Part shown: positions 4,800 through 35,145 of the stretch, piece by piece
How the letters are laid out: the number at the start of each line of letters is the position of its first letter
How positions within the stretch are numbered: position 1 is the first letter of the stretch
Virus genome (UHGV): UHGV-0205600
Reading direction: 5' to 3' (one strand)
Length of the DNA: 41,458 nt
Source: a virus
Notes under the pieces: model-generated
The model's input: only the letters and a program-made list of their open reading frames with translations
Databases searched by the model: none
Told to the model about the DNA's origin: nothing
Position numbers and translations under genes: made by a program

Positions 4800-6421
4800 C
4801 AGGCCTGTCTCCCTAGCAGCTCCCAGATGTTCAGGGCTGAATTCATTGGGGCATAGTTGATCATCACCGAGTCGGCAAGGTTTGGCGATCGGGTTCCATC
4901 AGGCTGTTTATCAATAACTATTTTTCCCACACCATTAATGGAATAGGTCGGCTGCGAAAGCTCGATGATGAGTTTATCTTTGAGTGCCATGCTACTGCTG
5001 ATTGAGATGATTTCGTCCGGGTTGTAAGCCATACCTTCAACCACGGCGCGCCAGGTATTCTGAAAAAGTTTACGTAACCGCCACCAGCTCTGGGCTTTGG
5101 CGTTAGCGAAGAAGTCCTTGTTCAGACGTGCGGCTTGCCCGTTGTCCCCGCGAACAGCTTCATCATCCGGATCAAATACCGCGCCACTACCTCGAAACGG
5201 TGTGGCAAGTATTGACGGTCGACGCGCAGCGTTACGCAGTTCGTTGATAGCGCGTGCATCGCCGCGAACGCCAGCGCCCAGCCCGTCCTCGTCAAAGCGA
5301 AACTCTTCGAGGTTGTCCTGTTCGCAAAAGCCGAAAACCTTCTCGACGGACTGATAAATGTCGCTGCCCACACCGGACCATTCCCGCACATTTTCCAGGA
5401 GGAAGCCATGACGGGTGGAAAAGGCATTTTTGTCCCTGCCTTCATCAGCGACATCCATCGCGCCAAGTCGTTTGCCTGTTGGCTGGATACCCAGTCTGAT
5501 ATGCGCATCAACGGCAGCCTGTACCCATTCGGATGGAATCAGGACGCCTTCCGCTGATGCGCTGTAGTTCAGATCAAGTTCCTGTGCCACCACCACCGGA
5601 TTATCGATTTTCTCGCATTCCCTGCGATACCACTCTTCATCCTTGCGAGGATCATCCCGCCAGTGGAATGTGAATACCGGTATCTTCCCGCCATGACGCT
5701 TCTGAGCGAACGGGTTAGCCATGCCGTTAACTGAACTCAGGTCGATACGGCAACGCGTCGTTTGTGACAACGCCGCATCAATCAGCAGAGGACGCTGAAG
5801 GAATGCAGCCTCATCAACCAGATAAAGCGTGGCACGGTCACCACGACCAATATTATCGCCAGCCTCGCCTTTGATAACGGCACCAGTTTCAGGAAACTCA
5901 ACACGCATATATGGCGCGTGCTTCTTCTCGCTCCACGAACCGCGAAACTCTACAGGTAGTGTTTCCACGAACTTGCGCGCCTTCCAGAACAATGCTTTCG
6001 GGTCACCGGTGCTGTCGACGTATTCCTCTTTACGGGAGCCGAAACCGATAACCATTTCTTTGTTGAAGAGACAAAGCGAGCAGGCCAGTCCGATCGCGGT
6101 CCAACTGAGCCCCATTTCACGGGATTTTTCGGTAATACCATTCTCCCTATTGCCCCAGCGTTCCATAATCCAGTGGATCCACTCCTCCTGCTTAGGGAAG
6201 AGTAAAAACGGAATGGTCACCGGCAGGCCATAATCAATATTACGCGGGTCCGTTGTCATGCCCCAGTCGATGATGAACTGAGCCGGGTTGGTTCGGTAAA
6301 ACTGTTTTAGTGCTGGCAATATTTCAGGGTTCTGGCGAATGCGCTGTAAGCGTTCCATCCGCCATTCAAAAACCATCTGGTAATCAGGATTTTTAAAATC
6401 GAAGGGGAATGGTAACGGCAT
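4799..6421 (-). CDS. terminase large subunit
   Basis: 540-aa ORF following the small terminase; N-terminal ATPase-like and C-terminal nuclease-like layout; canonical terS-terL-portal order. Confidence 0.85.
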
Positions 6422-6423
6422 AC

Positions 6424-6975
6424 TTAGCCCATCATTTTTCTATACGCCTCTGCAGCCTGCTCCGGCGTTAAGTTGGTAATTTCTGTTCTGACTGGTCCTC
6501 CATCAGCGCCAGTCACTTCATTTTTGACGTTGTCTTTAAACGCCTGAACAGAAACATGACGCCCAAGCAACTCAAGGTTTTTAACCTTATCAGGCCATTT
6601 GATTTTCTTCAGAAGTGCGGCGCTATCTGCGGATACCATCTCCATGACATCCATTCCTGATAGCGTTGTGCGCCATACCTTAGGCCAGTCTTTAATGGGT
6701 TTTAGCTCACCGTTTTGCAGGAGAATGTCAAGCACATCCATCTGGTCGATTTCAATAAGGCGATTAAGCACATATTCTGCATTAATACCAACAAGATCAT
6801 TGCGTTGCGCTTTCAGTTCGGCGATTCTTAACTTGATGTCAGGTTTTGACAGGTTTTCGGATGCGGTACGGTTAGCTGTCTTAGCGCTGTACCCCGCCCG
6901 AATAGCCGCTTGCGTGGCGTTTAAATCGATGAGGTACTCGCGACAGAACATTTCTTGTTTGTCGGTGAGTGCCAT
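6424..6975 (-). CDS. terminase small subunit
   Basis: 183-aa ORF with N-terminal [15 protein letters not shown]...[12 protein letters not shown] helix-turn-helix typical of small terminases; directly upstream of terL. Confidence 0.75.
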
Positions 6976-15323: not shown

Positions 15324-15434
15324 ATGCCCTCCATAGTAACCATGAGACAATAATACGATATGTACTTTTGGAATGCAAACAAAAAATACATCTTGTGCAT
15401 GGATGGTTTTAGTACAGAGCGTAATAATAAGGAT
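15324..15434. promoter_or_regulatory. OR/PR/PRM-type divergent control region between cro and cI
   Basis: 111-bp AT-rich spacer between divergent cro and cI starts; operators not individually resolved. Confidence 0.5.
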
Positions 15435-16094
15435 ATGAAAATGAAATGGTATGAACTGGCTAGATCCAGAATGAAAGAGCTCGGCATAACTCAAGAGAAG
15501 TTGGCTGAAGAGCTTGGTATGACGCAGGGTGGAATTGGTCACTGGTTGCGCGGATCTCGTCATCCATCTCTTGACGAGATTGGTGTGGTGTTTAAATACC
15601 TTGGTATTGATAACGTCTCATTCAACCACGACGGTACATTTTCACCTGTTGGCGAATACTCATCTGCCCCCGTTAAAAAACAATATGAGTACCCTGTTTT
15701 TTCTCATGTTCAGGCCGGGATGTTCTCGCCTGAGCTTAGAACCTTTACCAAAGGTGATGCGGAGAGATGGGTCAGCACAACCAAAAAAGCCAGTGATTGT
15801 GCGTTTTGGCTTGAAGTTGAAGGTAATTCCATGACCGCACCAACAGGATCCAAGCCAAGCTTTCCTGACGGGATGTTAATTCTCGTTGACCCTGAGCAGG
15901 CTGTTGAGCCAGGTGATTTCTGCATAGCCAGACTTGGTGGTGACGAGTTTACCTTCAAGAAACTGATCAGGGATAGCGGTCAGGTGTTCCTACAACCACT
16001 AAACCCGCAATATCCAATGATCCCATGCAATGATAGCTGTTCCGTTGTAGGGAAAGTTATCGCCAGCCAGTGGCCAGAAGAGACGTTTGGGTGA
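15435..16094 (+). CDS. cI: CI-type prophage repressor (HTH plus S24 LexA-like autopeptidase domain)
   Basis: N-terminal HTH ([23 protein letters not shown]) and C-terminal S24 signature GNSMTAP with downstream FTFKKL lysine; start taken at MKMKWYEL. Confidence 0.8.
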
Positions 16095-16119: not shown

Positions 16120-17166
16120 ATGTCAGCGATTGATCAACCTGCGCAATATGTTATCAAGTCAGAAGACGACTTTGTATCTTTTGTAACAGAAATGCTCGGA
16201 AGGAAGGATATCGACTCAAGCGACTTCACATTCCCTAACGTAGTTTTCAGTGGATGGCCAAAGATCAATATTAATGTAAAAGGCGATCCAAATAGATATA
16301 ATTCTTCATTGACTGCGTCAATGCTTTTTGGTATGGCAGAGCTTACGCATGAAATACAAAAAGCATTTACGGTAGTCAGTCACAGCACTCATAATCGGCA
16401 GAAGCTAAAAGATGCAGAGAAAGGTTTGCTGGATATTGTCTACCGAATAAGCGAAGGCTCAAGCCAAGCGGATGGTGACTCAGATCCGATTGTAAACGGA
16501 GTGGTGACAGTGTTTACTCAAGCGATAGGCAAAATGACAGGAAGGCAAGCACTATGCGCCGTCGCCGCTATCGTCTTAGCTGCCAGCACGGTAGGCTATA
16601 AGTGGATCAATGAGTACTACGAAACACAGCGACATGACCAAGATTCTCAGGTGCAATTGGTGGAAAAAAGCACCAAAGCGGTAAACGAAGCACAAGACAA
16701 TGTGCTCAAGTTGTTGATTAGCGGTCAAACAAACATTAGCAGAGAGGTTCTGGCTCACGGCGAGGATGGTAAAAGCAAGTTGCTTAAAAAGCTTGCTCAA
16801 GACTCGTCAGTTGAGAGGGTAACAATTGGTCAGAGAGTGGTAAATAGAGAACAGTTGAATACCTTAAACCAAAGACAATCAATTGATCGAAAAAAGGAAA
16901 CTAGAAGAGATAACTTTTATGTCACGGGCGTTCGTCGCTCGGGAGAAACAAATCAGGACATAAATATTGACGTCATAAGGGTTTCAAATGGTGAATCTTT
17001 CACCATAAAAACCTCAGCCGACATAACATCTACTGATGAGCTTCTTGAGTTTTTGAATGCTGTAGCCAAAGAATCAACTGTTGAAATTTCATACCTAGAG
17101 GTTGTAGAAAATGGGCACATTTCAACAGGGCAATTGATAAATATATTCCCCAGCGAACCAGAGTGA
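16120..17166 (+). CDS. hypothetical 348-aa protein in the rexAB slot, co-transcribed with cI
   Basis: Starts 25 nt after cI stop with an AGGA-type RBS; predicted central hydrophobic helix (ALCAVAAIVLAASTVGYKWI); followed by a rho-independent terminator then PL/nutL/N; does not resemble recalled lambda RexA or RexB. Confidence 0.7.
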   Translation: MSAIDQPAQYVIKSEDDFVSFVTEMLGRKDIDSSDFTFPNVVFSGWPKININVKGDPNRYNSSLTASMLFGMAELTHEIQKAFTVVSHSTHNRQKLKDAEKGLLDIVYRISEGSSQADGDSDPIVNGVVTVFTQAIGKMTGRQALCAVAAIVLAASTVGYKWINEYYETQRHDQDSQVQLVEKSTKAVNEAQDNVLKLLISGQTNISREVLAHGEDGKSKLLKKLAQDSSVERVTIGQRVVNREQLNTLNQRQSIDRKKETRRDNFYVTGVRRSGETNQDINIDVIRVSNGESFTIKTSADITSTDELLEFLNAVAKESTVEISYLEVVENGHISTGQLINIFPSEPE

Positions 17167-17340: not shown

Positions 17341-17370
17341 GCTCTTAAAAATTTAGCCCTGAAGAAGGGC
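17341..17370 (+). promoter_or_regulatory. nutL (boxA plus boxB hairpin)
   Basis: boxA-like gctcttaaa followed by boxB gccctgaagaagggc, matching the recalled lambda nut boxB hairpin. Confidence 0.75.
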
Positions 17371-17480: not shown

Positions 17481-17813
17481 ATGGATGCACAAGCACGCCG
17501 CCGCGAACGTCGCGCAGAGAAACAGGCTCAATGGAAAGCAGCAAATCCCCTGTTGGTTGGGGTAAGCGCAAAACCAGTTAACCGCCCTATTCTCTCGCTG
17601 AATCGCAAACCGAAATCACGAGTAGAAAGCGCACTGAATCCGATAGACCTTACGGTGCTGGCTGAATACCACGAACAGATTGAAAGCAACCTGCAACGTA
17701 TTGAGCGCAAGAATCAGCGCACATGGTACAGCAAGCCACGCTGTGAAATGGGTGTGACTTGCTCAGGCCGCCAGAAGCAACGCGGAAAATCAATTCCAGC
17801 TTATTACGATTGA
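17481..17813 (+). CDS. N: antiterminator N
   Basis: MDAQARRRERRAEKQAQWKAANPLLVGVSAKPVNRPILSLNRKPKSRVESALNPIDLTVLAEYH... matches recalled lambda N, including the arginine-rich motif. Confidence 0.9.
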   Translation: MDAQARRRERRAEKQAQWKAANPLLVGVSAKPVNRPILSLNRKPKSRVESALNPIDLTVLAEYHEQIESNLQRIERKNQRTWYSKPRCEMGVTCSGRQKQRGKSIPAYYD

Positions 17814-17821
17814 GGTGAGCC

Positions 17822-17959
17822 ATGCTCAAGAAAGTCAAACGCCGACTTTACAAAGAAGGTAGATATTCATGCCAGTTGCCAAAATGCGACACAACAAAAT
17901 GGAGTGTCGATGATTGGTGTAACTGGATAGATAGATACGGAACTTGGTGGGATAAATAA
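17822..17959 (+). CDS. small Cys-rich hypothetical protein (45 aa)
   Basis: Hand-translated: MLKKVKRRLYKEGRYSCQLPKCDTTKWSVDDWCNWIDRYGTWWDK; strong SD (gaggtg) 5 nt upstream of the ATG. Confidence 0.35.
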   Translation: MLKKVKRRLYKEGRYSCQLPKCDTTKWSVDDWCNWIDRYGTWWDK

Positions 17960-18013
17960 CAGGTAACTTAAGCGTATTTACTTTCGCAGCAAACAACTTA
18001 TTTGAGGTGATAT

Positions 18014-18100
18014 ATGGAAGAAGAATTTGAAGAGTTCGAAGAGCATCCTCAGGATGTGATGGAACAATACCAGGACTATCCGTATGACTACGACTATTGA
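18014..18100 (+). CDS. small acidic peptide (28 aa)
   Basis: Hand-translated: MEEEFEEFEEHPQDVMEQYQDYPYDYDY; strong SD (gaggtg); overlaps the ral start. Confidence 0.3.
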   Translation: MEEEFEEFEEHPQDVMEQYQDYPYDYDY

Positions 18101-18263
18101 TAAAAATCAATGGTGTGGACAATTCAAGCGATGCAATGGATGCAAGCTGCAATCGGAATGCATGGTTAAGCCTGAAGAAATGTTTCCTGTAATGGAAGAT
18201 GGGAAATATGTCGATAAATGGGCAATACGAACGACGGCAATGATTGCCAGAGAACTTGGTTAA
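18084..18263 (+). CDS. ral: Ral restriction-alleviation protein
   Basis: Hand-translated 59-aa ORF MTTTIDKNQWCGQFKRCNGCKLQSECMVKPEEMFPVMEDGKYVDKWAIRTTAMIARELG matches recalled lambda Ral. Confidence 0.8.
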   Translation: MTTTIDKNQWCGQFKRCNGCKLQSECMVKPEEMFPVMEDGKYVDKWAIRTTAMIARELG

Positions 18264-18418
18264 CAGAACAACAAAGCTGCCTGATAGTGGCCTTTATTTT
18301 TGGCATAAATAACAGAATAAACACTGCACTGTGTATTCATTCCAACGAGTGAATACACGGAGCAATGTCGCTCGTAACTAAACAGGAGCCGACTTGTTCT
18401 GATTATTGGAAATCTTCT

Positions 18419-18447
18419 TCGCCCTCCAGTGTGAGGGCGATTTTTTA
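18419..18447 (+). terminator. rho-independent terminator (tL-type) upstream of the 122-aa ORF
   Basis: Stem tcgccctc / gagggcga with 6-nt loop followed by tttttt. Confidence 0.65.
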
Positions 18448-18466
18448 TCTATGAGGATATGAATAG

Positions 18467-18835
18467 ATGTCAAACATCAAAAAATACATCATTGATTACG
18501 ACTGGAAAGCATCAATAGAAATTGAAATCGACCATGACGTAATGACAGAGGAAAAACTTCACCAGATTAATAATTTCTGGTCAGACTCTGAATACCGACT
18601 CAATAAACACGGCTCTGTATTAAATGCTGTATTAATCATGCTGGCGCAACATGCTCTGCTTATAGCAATTTCAAGCGACTTAAATGCATATGGTGTTGTG
18701 TGTGAGTTCGACTGGAATGATGGAAATGGTCAGGAAGGATGGCCTCCAATGGATGGTAGCGAAGGAATAAGAATTACCGATATCGATACATCAGGAATAT
18801 TTGATTCAGATGATATGACTATCAAAGCCGCTTGA
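18467..18835 (+). CDS. hypothetical 122-aa acidic protein in the sieB slot
   Basis: ORF with RBS (gagga) 8 nt upstream; between ral and cIII; acidic C-terminus (DIDTSGIFDSDDMTIKAA); no recognised motif. Confidence 0.6.
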   Translation: MSNIKKYIIDYDWKASIEIEIDHDVMTEEKLHQINNFWSDSEYRLNKHGSVLNAVLIMLAQHALLIAISSDLNAYGVVCEFDWNDGNGQEGWPPMDGSEGIRITDIDTSGIFDSDDMTIKAA

Positions 18836-18907
18836 GCGCGGCGTTACCGCATACCAATAACGCTTCACTCGAGGCGTTTTTCGTTATGTATAAATAAGGA
18901 GCACACC

Positions 18908-19072
18908 ATGCAATATGCCATTGCAGGGTGGCCTGTTGCTGGCTGCCCTTCCGAATCTTTACTTGAACGAATCACCCGTAAATTACGTGACGGATGGAAA
19001 CGCCTTATCGACATACTTAATCAGCCAGGAGTCCCAAAAAATGGATCAAACACTTATGGCTATCCAGACTAA
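18908..19072 (+). CDS. cIII: CIII (FtsH inhibitor)
   Basis: Hand-translated 54-aa [57 protein letters not shown] matches recalled lambda CIII. Confidence 0.85.
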   Translation: MQYAIAGWPVAGCPSESLLERITRKLRDGWKRLIDILNQPGVPKNGSNTYGYPD

Positions 19073-19184
19073 ATTCACTATCGCCACTTTTATTGGCGAT
19101 GAAAAGATGTTTCGTGAGGCCGTCGACGCTTATAAAAAATGGATATTAATACTGAAACTGAGATCAAGCAAAAGCATTCACTAA
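19041..19184 (+). CDS. kil: Kil (host cell-division inhibitor)
   Basis: Internal start [47 protein letters not shown] (47 aa) matches recalled lambda Kil; overlaps the cIII end and gam start. Confidence 0.8.
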
Positions 19185-19555
19185 CCCCCTTTCCTGTTTT
19201 CCTAATCAGCCCGGCATTTCGCGGGCGATATTTTCACAGCTATTTCAGGAGTTCAGCCATGAACGCTTATTACATTCAGGATCGTCTTGAGGCTCAGAGC
19301 TGGACGCGTCACTACCAGCAGATCGCCCGTGAAGAGAAAGAGGCAGAACTGGCAGACGACATGGAAAAAGGCCTGCCCCAGCACCTGTTTGAATCGCTAT
19401 GCATCGATCATTTGCAACGCCACGGGGCCAGCAAAAAAGCCATTACCCGTGCGTTTGATGACGATGTTGAGTTTCAGGAGCGCATGGCAGAACACATCCG
19501 GTACATGGTTGAAACCATTGCTCACCACCAGGTTGATATTGATTCAGAGGTATAA
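19139..19555 (+). CDS. gam: Gam (RecBCD inhibitor)
   Basis: 138-aa ORF matching recalled lambda Gam, including the internal MNAYYIQ start of the short form. Confidence 0.9.
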
Positions 19556-34255: not shown

Positions 34256-34558
34256 TTACTCCGTTGATACCAGTAAATGGCTGCGACCGCCCAGGTCAGT
34301 TTTTGTGGGGTAATCCTGTGTGTTGTCATCACAGACCACCACCAGCTTAAAACCAAGCCCCATACAGGCGTACTGCGCCAGCAGGTCGGCACCAGTGACG
34401 AGAGGAATACCGGAGATTACCGGCTCCCCTCTGTCGTTCTGCAGGTCCATAATCCAGTACAGATCGCGCCATATGATGCTAATCCGCCAGGTAACACCAC
34501 CTAAGACGATGCTGAACTGCTGGTTGTCCGCTGTCAGCGGAATTTCCTGAATTGTCAT
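34256..34558 (-). CDS. tail protein
   Basis: 100-aa ORF in the tail block with tight spacing to neighbours. Confidence 0.4.
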   Translation of the reverse strand: MTIQEIPLTADNQQFSIVLGGVTWRISIIWRDLYWIMDLQNDRGEPVISGIPLVTGADLLAQYACMGLGFKLVVVCDDNTQDYPTKTDLGGRSHLLVSTE

Positions 34559-35145
34559 TAGCCGCCCCCCAGTAATGACGCCACGTTACCCGTGATGCTT
34601 TTCAGCAGTGAAGTATCTGGAGGCTTTGTGGTTTTGTTGCCGCTATTCTGTACCGCCGACGTGCTGGCCCCTTCCTTCATGTTGGTTTTATCCGCGACGG
34701 TAATCTGCTGTGTCCGGGAGATAAGGACCTCCCTCAGGGTGAGGACGGCGGACAGGACGTTTTCGGTTGTCTTGTCCGTCGTCACTTCCAGCGCCCGGAT
34801 CAACATGTTGCTGTACAGTCGTTTACCGGTTACCACATCGAAGGGGATACGGCTTTCCTGCAGATCCAGTAGCTCCTGATACGTCTGCTGAGGACTCAGG
34901 CCGAGCAGGCTGGTAGCCGTCAGATTACTGGCAAAATCCAGCAATGCGCCGTCACCGGCGAAACCAACCTCCATCACCACTTCTGACGGTTTTTTATAGG
35001 CATGATCAGCGACAGCGGCCCCAACCTCTACCGGATGCTCTGTTATTTCAAGCATATCTGTATGCTTCTCTGAAATAACAACACTGGGAACAATCATTCC
35101 TATTTTTCTGCTCTGCTGATGAAAAAGTGTAGAGAGAATATCCAC
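34558..35145 (-). CDS. tail protein (DNA-circulation-like position after tape measure)
   Basis: 195-aa ORF immediately downstream of the tape measure gene; assignment by synteny. Confidence 0.4.
   Translation of the reverse strand: MDILSTLFHQQSRKIGMIVPSVVISEKHTDMLEITEHPVEVGAAVADHAYKKPSEVVMEVGFAGDGALLDFASNLTATSLLGLSPQQTYQELLDLQESRIPFDVVTGKRLYSNMLIRALEVTTDKTTENVLSAVLTLREVLISRTQQITVADKTNMKEGASTSAVQNSGNKTTKPPDTSLLKSITGNVASLLGGG

What the first reader, a model, noticed from the sequence alone, without database searches (positions are those of the whole stretch)
18467..18835. Unknown 122-aa acidic protein in the sieB slot, directly behind a strong terminator
The interval between ral and cIII holds sieB in lambda and is a hotspot for early-expressed exclusion or anti-defence genes. 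Here it carries an unrecognised 122-aa protein with an acidic C-terminus. A strong terminator ends only 20 bp before its RBS, so the gene is probably read mainly under N antitermination, early in lytic growth. That timing and the acidic tail are compatible with an anti-restriction or anti-defence role alongside Ral and Gam.
Basis: inference. Interest (0 to 1): 0.55.

Follow-up and report, generated by a model that had tools for sequence, protein, structure and literature searches.

The report
Lambda ea10 gene, function still unknown
The "unknown" 122-residue protein is gene ea10 of phage lambda, a common and long-catalogued early gene whose function has never been established, so the finding is a rediscovery and not a new element.

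Summary
The ORF at 18467-18835 (+) is real. It encodes a protein 100% identical to phage lambda Ea10 (NP_040621; Pfam DUF2528, 160 bits). The stretch from orf28 to cIII matches lambda at about 99% DNA identity.

In lambda, sieB lies between N and ral, and the ral-cIII interval holds ea10.

The "strong terminator" is real (stem 18419-18440, T-run 18441-18446). It is lambda tL2a, which is also the 3' end of the Hfq-dependent sRNA PreS/LPR1. It ends 20 nt before the ATG and 6 nt before the Shine-Dalgarno, which leaves no room for a promoter. Expression by N-antiterminated pL read-through therefore fits, and this is classical lambda knowledge.

The function of Ea10 remains unknown:
- It is non-essential.
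- It was reported as abundantly made.
- It has no similarity by sequence or fold to any solved structure.
- The old "ssb" label has no support.

New descriptive points:
- The family has about 600 clusters at 50% identity.
- It is uniformly acidic (98% of representatives have pI below 5).
- It sits in the early operons of both lambdoid and Mu-like phages.

An anti-defence or host-inhibitor role is plausible but untested. Verdict: already known gene, low interest.

The parts
17356..17370 (+). nutL boxB (GCCCTGAAGAAGGGC), the N-utilisation site upstream of N
   Evidence: The hairpin was picked up (reported on the - strand as GCCCTTCTTCAGGGC). The sequence is the lambda boxB from my own knowledge. 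The lambda record annotates NutL at the equivalent place.
17481..17813 (+). N antiterminator gene (lambda-type N, MDAQARRRERRAEKQAQWK...)
   Evidence: ORF list. The start is taken at the internal ATG. N is at the equivalent position in lambda.
18084..18263 (+). ral (restriction alleviation), 59 aa here against 66 aa in lambda
   Evidence: phrog_1055 ral, positions 1-59 of 66.
18359..18446 (+). PreS/LPR1 Hfq-dependent sRNA. The 5' end is approximate and is inferred from the ~88 nt size reported for lambda.
   Evidence: About 99% identical to lambda here. The sRNA is described between ral and ea10 and ends at tL2a. Fold energy -33.7 kcal/mol, z -4.0.
18419..18446 (+). Intrinsic terminator tL2a (8-bp stem with 6 G-C pairs, 6-nt loop, T6 run)
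   Evidence: Identified as tL2a in bioRxiv 10.1101/2024.10.31.621285.
18453..18457 (+). Shine-Dalgarno GAGGA of ea10, 9 nt before the ATG
   Evidence: Read directly.
18467..18835 (+). ea10 coding sequence (122 aa plus stop), Pfam DUF2528
18859..18883 (+). Second terminator-like hairpin and T-run, directly after ea10. It is probably another member of lambda's tL2 cluster, but that assignment was not verified.
   Evidence: Identical in lambda. Present after ea10 in 74 of 79 related viral loci.
18895..18953 (+). cIII thermoregulator RNA element (Rfam RF01804), overlapping the start of cIII (CDS 18908-19072)
   Evidence: 88.5 bits, E = 1.4e-21.

Best explanation
**Identity (shown, about 0.99).** This is gene ea10 of a lambda-like prophage. 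Its product is identical to lambda Ea10, a member of Pfam DUF2528.

**Expression (inferred here from 99% identity to lambda and from the layout, about 0.9).**
- ea10 has no promoter of its own.
- It is read from pL only when N-modified RNA polymerase runs through tL2a. The N site nutL is at 17356-17370. The tL2a hairpin ends 20 nt before the ATG.
- Transcripts that stop at tL2a yield the sRNA PreS/LPR1. Transcripts that read through give ea10-cIII-kil-gam-bet-exo mRNA.
- Ea10 is therefore a delayed-early product of the lytic phase.

**Function (inference only).** Ea10 folds into a compact, very acidic alpha/beta domain and is made in quantity. I think it most likely acts stoichiometrically, by binding and blocking a host macromolecule. 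The likeliest targets are a DNA-handling protein or a defence protein. That would make it a dispensable host-takeover or anti-defence accessory, alongside Ral, Gam and Kil.
- The general version, a non-enzymatic binder of a host factor: about 0.5.
- The specific anti-defence or DNA-mimic version: about 0.3.
For: **Identity**
- 100% amino-acid identity to NP_040621.
- 98.7-99.5% DNA identity to lambda and many lambdoid phages, with features annotated Ea10.
- DUF2528 at E = 1.8e-47 and phrog_646.
- The lambda gene order orf28-ral-ea10-cIII-kil-gam is reproduced here.

**Expression**
- Terminator at 18419-18446, and no promoter-like site between it and the ORF.
- tL2a and PreS are described at this spot, and their expression is lytic-only.

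**Protein properties**
- AlphaFold model with pLDDT 94.7 and pTM 0.86. It has one beta-hairpin, four helices, a conserved loop and a third strand.
- pI 4.28, net charge about -14.
- Acidity is a family trait: 98% of 122 representatives have pI below 5, and the median net charge is -13.
- Ea10 was reported as abundantly produced. It was once mistaken for the kil product (PMC3961180).

**Dispensability**
- No CRISPRi phenotype (PMC10695390).
- A viable IS10 insertion in ea10 (PMC2327257).
- (sieB-ea10)<>cat strains still show Kil-dependent filamentation and are used for Red recombineering.

**Genomic context**
- Always co-oriented within early operons.
- In the lambdoid pL operon in some loci.
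- In about half of the distant loci it follows MuA/MuB and precedes GemA/Mor in Mu-like prophages of Salmonella, Serratia, Citrobacter, Oceanobacter, Pseudoalteromonas, Deltaproteobacteria and Calditrichota.
- P22 carries the non-homologous anti-exclusion gene 17 at the same position, before c3.

**Selection**
- Strong purifying selection, dN/dS 0.07.
Against: - No experiment links Ea10 to any target or defence system. The searched literature says its role is not understood.
- The best-conserved residues (E20, D22, N35, F37, W38, R44, E90-G91-W92, D96-G97-S98, G100) form specific polar and glycine-rich motifs. That pattern would also suit a ligand pocket or a catalytic site better than a generic acidic decoy surface.
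- The gene is nearly invariant across E. coli prophages: at least 95% DNA identity in 1479 genomes. That is not the pattern of rapid diversification often seen in arms-race genes.
Confidence: 0.5

Rival explanations
1. Ea10 is a single-stranded-DNA-binding protein. This is the old 'ssb' annotation carried in many database records. On this reading it would assist Red recombination or replication.
For: [quoted passage not shown] It lies upstream of gam-bet-exo. Known phage SSBs are also acidic overall (my own knowledge).
Against: - No hit to SSB or OB-fold families in Pfam.
- The confident model is a beta-hairpin plus four helices, not an OB fold.
- No solved SSB appears among the fold neighbours.
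- It has only 8 K+R in 122 residues, with a net charge of about -14.
- Strains deleted for sieB-ea10 are used routinely for Red recombineering.
- I found no experimental source for the label in the searchable literature.
Confidence: 0.05
2. Ea10 is a small-molecule binder or a small enzyme. One example would be a sponge for a host immune signalling molecule. It would use the pocket formed by the conserved EIDH, NxFW, R44 and EGWPxxDGSxGI motifs.
For: - The best-conserved positions are polar, aromatic or glycine residues in loops.
- High abundance suits a stoichiometric sponge.
- The protein has the size and early timing of known sponge proteins (my own knowledge).
Against: - No fold similarity to any solved sponge or enzyme.
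- No Pfam relation beyond DUF2528 across 122 members. The recurrent weak V-ATPase_H_C hits are below threshold.
- I could not inspect the model coordinates to confirm that the conserved residues form one pocket.
Confidence: 0.15
3. Ea10 is an SPFH-like module that acts on the host HflKC-FtsH protease system together with the neighbouring cIII gene. It would thereby tune the lysis-lysogeny decision.
Against: - Foldseek finds no SPFH protein.
- Profile comparison with E. coli HflC and HflK gives a probability of 0.1-0.2%.
- About half of the distant family members examined sit in Mu-like phages with no cIII nearby.
- cIII follows ea10 in only 65 of 79 lambdoid loci.
Confidence: 0.03
4. The ORF is a conserved passenger with no function of its own. 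It would be retained only because it is linked to the PreS sRNA and the cIII regulatory signals.
For: The gene is non-essential. PreS and ea10 are almost always linked, in 76 of 77 loci.
Against: - dN/dS is 0.07.
- About 600 clusters of homologues exist, including in Mu-like phages where it is translationally abutted to MuB and there is no PreS.
- The fold is predicted with high confidence.
- The protein is abundant.
Confidence: 0.02

Closest known systems
Phage lambda Ea10 (gene ea10, old synonym 'ssb'; NP_040621; Pfam PF10800 DUF2528; phrog_646)
   Same: The protein sequence is identical. The neighbours are the same (orf28, ral, PreS/tL2a upstream; hairpin, cIII, kil, gam downstream). The DNA is about 99% identical.
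   Different: Nothing differs in the gene itself apart from two synonymous changes. The surrounding prophage differs from lambda in three ways. There is no sieB. ral is 7 codons shorter. A different gene occupies the rex slot.
P22 gene 17 (Pfam PF17420 GP17; annotated 'allows growth on phage Fels2 lysogen')
   Same: It holds the same position in the pL operon, directly upstream of c3/cIII and downstream of ral, and it ends with a terminator. It is a small early accessory protein.
   Different: It is not homologous: hhalign probability 0.2% and a different Pfam family. Its anti-exclusion phenotype therefore cannot be transferred to Ea10.
Acidic DNA-mimic inhibitors of host nucleases and restriction systems (lambda Gam, T7 Ocr, ArdA)
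   Same: They are small, strongly acidic, made early, non-essential in laboratory hosts, and encoded beside other host-inhibitor genes. The general properties of these mimics come from my own knowledge.
   Different: No sequence or fold similarity to any of them. Ea10 has well-conserved loop motifs that these mimics typically lack. No target is known.
Lambda SieB
   Same: Both are non-essential genes of the region to the left of N.
   Different: SieB is a 184-aa protein encoded between N and ral. In the lambda record it is annotated on the strand opposite to N, ral and ea10. This window has no sieB at all.

Membership tests
Ea10 / DUF2528 (PF10800) | Match to the family HMM above Pfam's gathering score | tested here: met
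   160.6 bits against a cut-off of 22, covering profile positions 1-104 of 104. phrog_646 is covered 1-122 of 122.
Ea10 / DUF2528 (PF10800) | Identity to the type member, lambda Ea10 | tested here: met
   122 of 122 residues identical.
Ea10 / DUF2528 (PF10800) | Lambda synteny: downstream of ral and tL2a/PreS, upstream of cIII, same strand as pL transcription | tested here: met
SieB superinfection exclusion | Sequence similarity to SieB, and position between N and ral | tested here: not met
   The only Pfam hit above threshold is DUF2528. Lambda sieB is at 34482-35036, between N and ral. That segment is absent from the window.
Single-stranded DNA-binding proteins (OB-fold SSB) | OB-fold domain or SSB family signature | tested here: not met
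Single-stranded DNA-binding proteins (OB-fold SSB) | Binding of ssDNA | not testable with these tools
   This needs purified protein. The net charge of -14 argues against it.
DNA-mimic anti-restriction or anti-nuclease proteins | Strongly negative surface charge, conserved across the family | tested here: met
   pI 4.28. 98% of 122 family representatives have pI below 5.
DNA-mimic anti-restriction or anti-nuclease proteins | Structural or sequence relation to a known mimic (Ocr, ArdA, Gam, Arn and others) | tested here: not met
DNA-mimic anti-restriction or anti-nuclease proteins | Binding and inhibition of a DNA-binding host enzyme | not testable with these tools
   This needs pull-downs or plating assays.
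SPFH / band-7 domain (HflK, HflC) | Significant fold or profile similarity to the SPFH domain | tested here: not met
P22 GP17 anti-exclusion protein (PF17420) | Homology to gp17 | tested here: not met
   hhalign probability 0.2%. gp17 hits PF17420 and Ea10 does not.
Moron (autonomous promoter-gene-terminator cassette) | Own promoter immediately upstream of the gene | tested here: not met
   No promoter-like site between 18288 and 18467 on the + strand. Only 20 nt separate the T-run from the ATG. A terminator-like hairpin does follow the gene.
Known anti-phage defence proteins (PADLOC) | Match to any defence-system model | tested here: not met
   0 families at E <= 0.1.

The most novel reading that the evidence does not exclude
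DUF2528/Ea10 may be a widespread, unrecognised class of early phage inhibitor. The family has about 600 clusters at 50% identity, is uniformly acidic, and is shared by lambdoid and Mu-like transposable phages. Candidate modes of action are a DNA mimic or a sponge that neutralises a common host defence or DNA-handling protein. On this reading the block PreS sRNA + tL2a + ea10 would be a two-output host-takeover module. Termination would give the sRNA that raises DnaN. Read-through would give the inhibitor.
Probability: 0.3. Interest if true: 0.6.

Novelty: already known. Interest (0 to 1): 0.2.

Why it matters
As a finding it matters little. The gene, its position, its terminator and its N-dependent timing have been in the lambda literature since the early 1980s. 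The same gene is present in about 27% of complete E. coli genomes.

What stays open is a long-standing small gap: what Ea10 does. This work adds four points that make ea10 a reasonable candidate for modern anti-defence screens:
- A confident fold with no solved relative.
- Acidity conserved across the whole family.
- A distribution that spans lambdoid and Mu-like early regions.
- No support for the inherited 'ssb' label.

None of this establishes a function.

Tried and rejected
1. **sieB identity or slot.** Rejected by the lambda annotation and the alignment.
2. **The 'ssb' annotation.** No OB fold and no SSB signature.
3. **Homology to P22 gene 17, the positional analogue with an anti-exclusion phenotype.** hhalign probability 0.2%.
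5. **Sequence searches of the PDB.** I used the single protein and profiles of 50 and 122 sequences. Only chance-level hits came back.
6. **Foldseek against PDB and BFVD.** Nothing informative. One unnamed 121-aa viral protein matched.
7. **afdb50.** This library was unavailable.
8. **PADLOC defence models.** None matched.
9. **Domain fusions.** Longer family members (P0130, P0196, P0208, P0235) carry no second Pfam domain. The Gam and DUF5405 'fusions' (P0026, P0110) look like deletion chimeras of neighbouring genes.
10. **A conserved partner gene next to DUF2528.** None holds across lineages. Only the general early-region context is shared.
11. **An independent promoter.** None between the terminator and the ORF. 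The one + strand site (18260-18288) lies upstream of PreS, and the count of sites is within chance expectation.
12. **Literature.** No paper in the searchable library assigns a function to Ea10 or DUF2528. The single two-hybrid partner reported for Ea10 could not be located in the text held.

Full report
**1. What is in the sequence**

The + strand of this window reads in the direction of lambda's leftward (pL) early operon. The genes run in this order:
- a cI-like repressor (15360-16094)
- an unannotated 348-aa gene (16120-17166)
- nutL boxB (17356-17370)
- N (17481-17813)
- a 45-aa DUF5484 ORF (17822-17959)
- orf28 (18014-18100)
- ral (18084-18263)
- the ORF of the finding (18467-18835)
- cIII (18908-19072), kil, gam (19139-19555), bet and exo

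The ORF of the finding starts with ATG and encodes 122 aa. A GAGGA Shine-Dalgarno lies 9 nt upstream of the ATG.

The consensus scan finds a terminator-like hairpin at 18419-18440 (8 pairs, 6 of them G-C), followed by T6 at 18441-18446. A second hairpin lies directly after the ORF at 18859-18878. No promoter-like site lies between the first hairpin and the ORF. The T-run ends 20 nt before the ATG and 6 nt before the Shine-Dalgarno.

**2. Identity**

- The protein is 122/122 identical to lambda Ea10, NP_040621.
- The DNA from orf28 to cIII aligns with lambda at about 99%. Inside ea10 there are two substitutions, both synonymous.
- Megablast finds the segment in 328 phage records. Many of them annotate it Ea10, "reading frame ea10" or "ssb".
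- Pfam gives DUF2528 at 160.6 bits against a cut-off of 22. PHROGs gives phrog_646, function unknown.
- The gene is present at 95% DNA identity or more in 1479 of 5426 complete E. coli genomes. There PGAP calls it "DUF2528 family protein".
- In lambda the ral-cIII interval holds ea10. sieB lies between N and ral.

**3. The terminator and expression**

A 2024 preprint (bioRxiv 10.1101/2024.10.31.621285) describes an Hfq-dependent sRNA called LPR1, later PreS.
- It is about 88 nt long, is processed to about 68 nt, and lies between ral and ea10.
- Its GC-rich hairpin and U-tail are terminator tL2a of the early left operon.
- It appears within 10 min of induction and is absent in lysogens.
- It raises translation of the host dnaN.

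The window carries this element almost unchanged, at roughly 18359-18446. It folds with z = -4.0 against shuffles. One T-to-C change at 18420 replaces a U-G wobble pair in the stem with a C-G pair.

Three features together fit the established lambda picture that ea10 is read only by N-modified polymerase passing tL2a:
- nutL and N lie upstream.
- The terminator abuts the ribosome-binding site.
- There is no room for a promoter.

I infer that the same transcript has two fates. Stopping at tL2a gives PreS. Reading through gives ea10-cIII-kil-gam-bet-exo message. This was not tested here.

Among IMG/VR loci that carry an identical Ea10:

| Element | Present |
|---|---|
| PreS segment upstream, at fixed spacing | 76 of 77 |
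| downstream hairpin | 74 of 79 |
| cIII | 65 of 79 |
| ral | 26 of 76 |

PreS, tL2a, ea10 and the downstream hairpin therefore travel as one mosaic block.

**4. What is known about Ea10**

In the searchable literature its role is "not fully understood".
- It is non-essential by CRISPRi (PMC10695390).
- It tolerates an IS10 insertion (PMC2327257).
- It is removed in (sieB-ea10)<>cat strains, which still show Kil-dependent filamentation and serve for Red recombineering (PMC3961180).
- The same paper notes that an abundantly produced early protein, first taken for Kil, was in fact Ea10.
- No paper mentions DUF2528 beyond a table entry.

**5. What the protein looks like**

An AlphaFold2 model built on 50 homologues is confident, with pLDDT 94.7 and pTM 0.86. 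Its elements are:
- a beta-hairpin (strands 4-11 and 15-22)
- four helices (28-37, 41-48, 51-70, 74-80)
- a long conserved loop (81-100, EGWPPMDGSEGI)
- a third strand (101-107)
- an acidic C-terminal segment

Searches for relatives gave the following:
- Foldseek against the PDB gives nothing at E <= 0.001.
- BFVD gives one unnamed 121-aa viral protein.
- The afdb50 library was unavailable.
- Sequence and profile searches of the PDB are empty.
- The SPFH lead is not supported by profile comparison with E. coli HflC or HflK, at probability 0.1-0.2%.
- The inherited "ssb" label has no support. There is no OB fold and no SSB signature. The protein has a net charge of about -14 and only 8 basic residues.

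**6. The family**

An exhaustive profile search finds 598 clusters at 50% identity with E <= 0.001. Nearly all are single-domain proteins of 110-140 aa.
- Longer members carry no second known domain.
- Acidity is conserved across the family. 98% of 122 representatives have pI below 5, and the median net charge is -13.
- The best-conserved positions are Y7, E20, D22, N35, F37, W38, R44, L56, F81, E90-G91-W92, D96-G97-S98 and G100.
- Selection is strongly purifying, with dN/dS of 0.07 against a 77%-identical homologue.

**7. Genomic context of distant members**

Close relatives sit in lambdoid pL operons.

In about half of the distant loci examined, the gene lies in the early region of Mu-like transposable prophages. 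It comes after the MuA-like transposase and the MuB-like ATPase, often abutting MuB, and before Gam, GemA and Mor. The hosts include Salmonella, Serratia, Citrobacter, Oceanobacter, Pseudoalteromonas, a deltaproteobacterium and a Calditrichota MAG. In the Calditrichota MAG it sits between MuA and MuB. Burkholderia Mu-like phages carry it next to GemA.

No single neighbour is conserved across lineages. The only shared feature is an early, co-oriented, accessory position.

In P22, the gene directly before c3 is gene 17, annotated as allowing growth on a Fels-2 lysogen. It is not homologous to Ea10. This shows that the position can host an anti-exclusion gene, but the phenotype does not transfer to Ea10.

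**8. Most likely mechanism and rivals**

Identity and expression are secure. For function I commit to the following reading. Ea10 is an abundant, acidic, stoichiometric binder of a host macromolecule, and a dispensable host-takeover or anti-defence accessory like its neighbours Ral, Gam and Kil. I put about 0.5 on the general form and about 0.3 on a specific anti-defence or DNA-mimic role.

The main rival is a ligand-binding or enzymatic pocket formed by the conserved loop motifs (0.15). The other rivals are ssDNA binding (0.05), an HflKC/FtsH link (0.03) and a functionless passenger (0.02). The remainder is "something else".

**9. Verdict**

The timing inference is correct and is textbook. 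The anti-defence idea stays open.

The new information is descriptive only:
- a confident fold with no solved relative
- acidity conserved across the family
- a lambdoid plus Mu-like distribution
- linkage to PreS

Interest is low.

Noticed in passing
window 18084-18263 (change at 18261): ral encodes 59 aa here, not the 66 aa of lambda. An A-to-T change turns the AAA codon after ...ELG into TAA, which removes the last 7 residues (KQNNKAA). Whether this Ral still alleviates restriction is unknown.
   Followed up: partly
window 17814-18013: There is no sieB between N and orf28/ral. The roughly 700-bp lambda segment is replaced by a short stretch that carries a 45-aa DUF5484 ORF (17822-17959; phrog_1871, function unknown).
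   Followed up: partly
window 16120-17166: The rexA/rexB slot, directly after the cI-like repressor, holds a 348-aa protein. It has no Pfam or PADLOC match and hits only phrog_6191 (function unknown). The position suggests a prophage-expressed exclusion or defence gene. Phage phi458 has the same arrangement.
   Followed up: partly
window about 18359-18446; loci L050-L129: The PreS/LPR1 sRNA and ea10 are almost always linked: 76 of 77 loci, at fixed spacing of 20-21 nt. By contrast ral is present upstream in only 26 of 76. The mosaic boundary therefore lies upstream of PreS.
   Followed up: yes
L008-L021, L025, L030, L033 (genome contigs): ea10 copies 100% identical to lambda occur on short or roughly 48.5-kb low-coverage contigs in assemblies of unrelated taxa. 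These include Pseudoxanthomonas, Enterococcus, Shewanella, Bradyrhizobium, Paenibacillus, Kitasatospora and Arthrobacter. This is almost certainly lambda control-DNA contamination of those assemblies.
   Followed up: no
L038 about 6001-6700 (Gallionellales MAG): Two DUF2528 genes lie in tandem (120 aa and 117 aa).
   Followed up: no
L028 about 5880-6000 (Buttiauxella MAG): A 57%-identical Ea10 homologue is also preceded by a GC-rich hairpin and T-run (GCCCGCCACCGTGCGGGCTTCTTTTT) just before its RBS. The terminator-then-gene layout may therefore be conserved beyond the lambda sequence itself. This could be a PreS analogue.
   Followed up: no
window 18895-18953: The lambda cIII thermoregulator RNA (Rfam RF01804, 88.5 bits) is intact at the start of cIII.
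   Followed up: yes
window 17481-17813: The N protein is lambda-like over most of its length but has a different C-terminal end (...SKPRCEMGVTCSGRQKQRGKSIPAYYD). The comparison with lambda N is from memory and was not aligned here.
   Followed up: no
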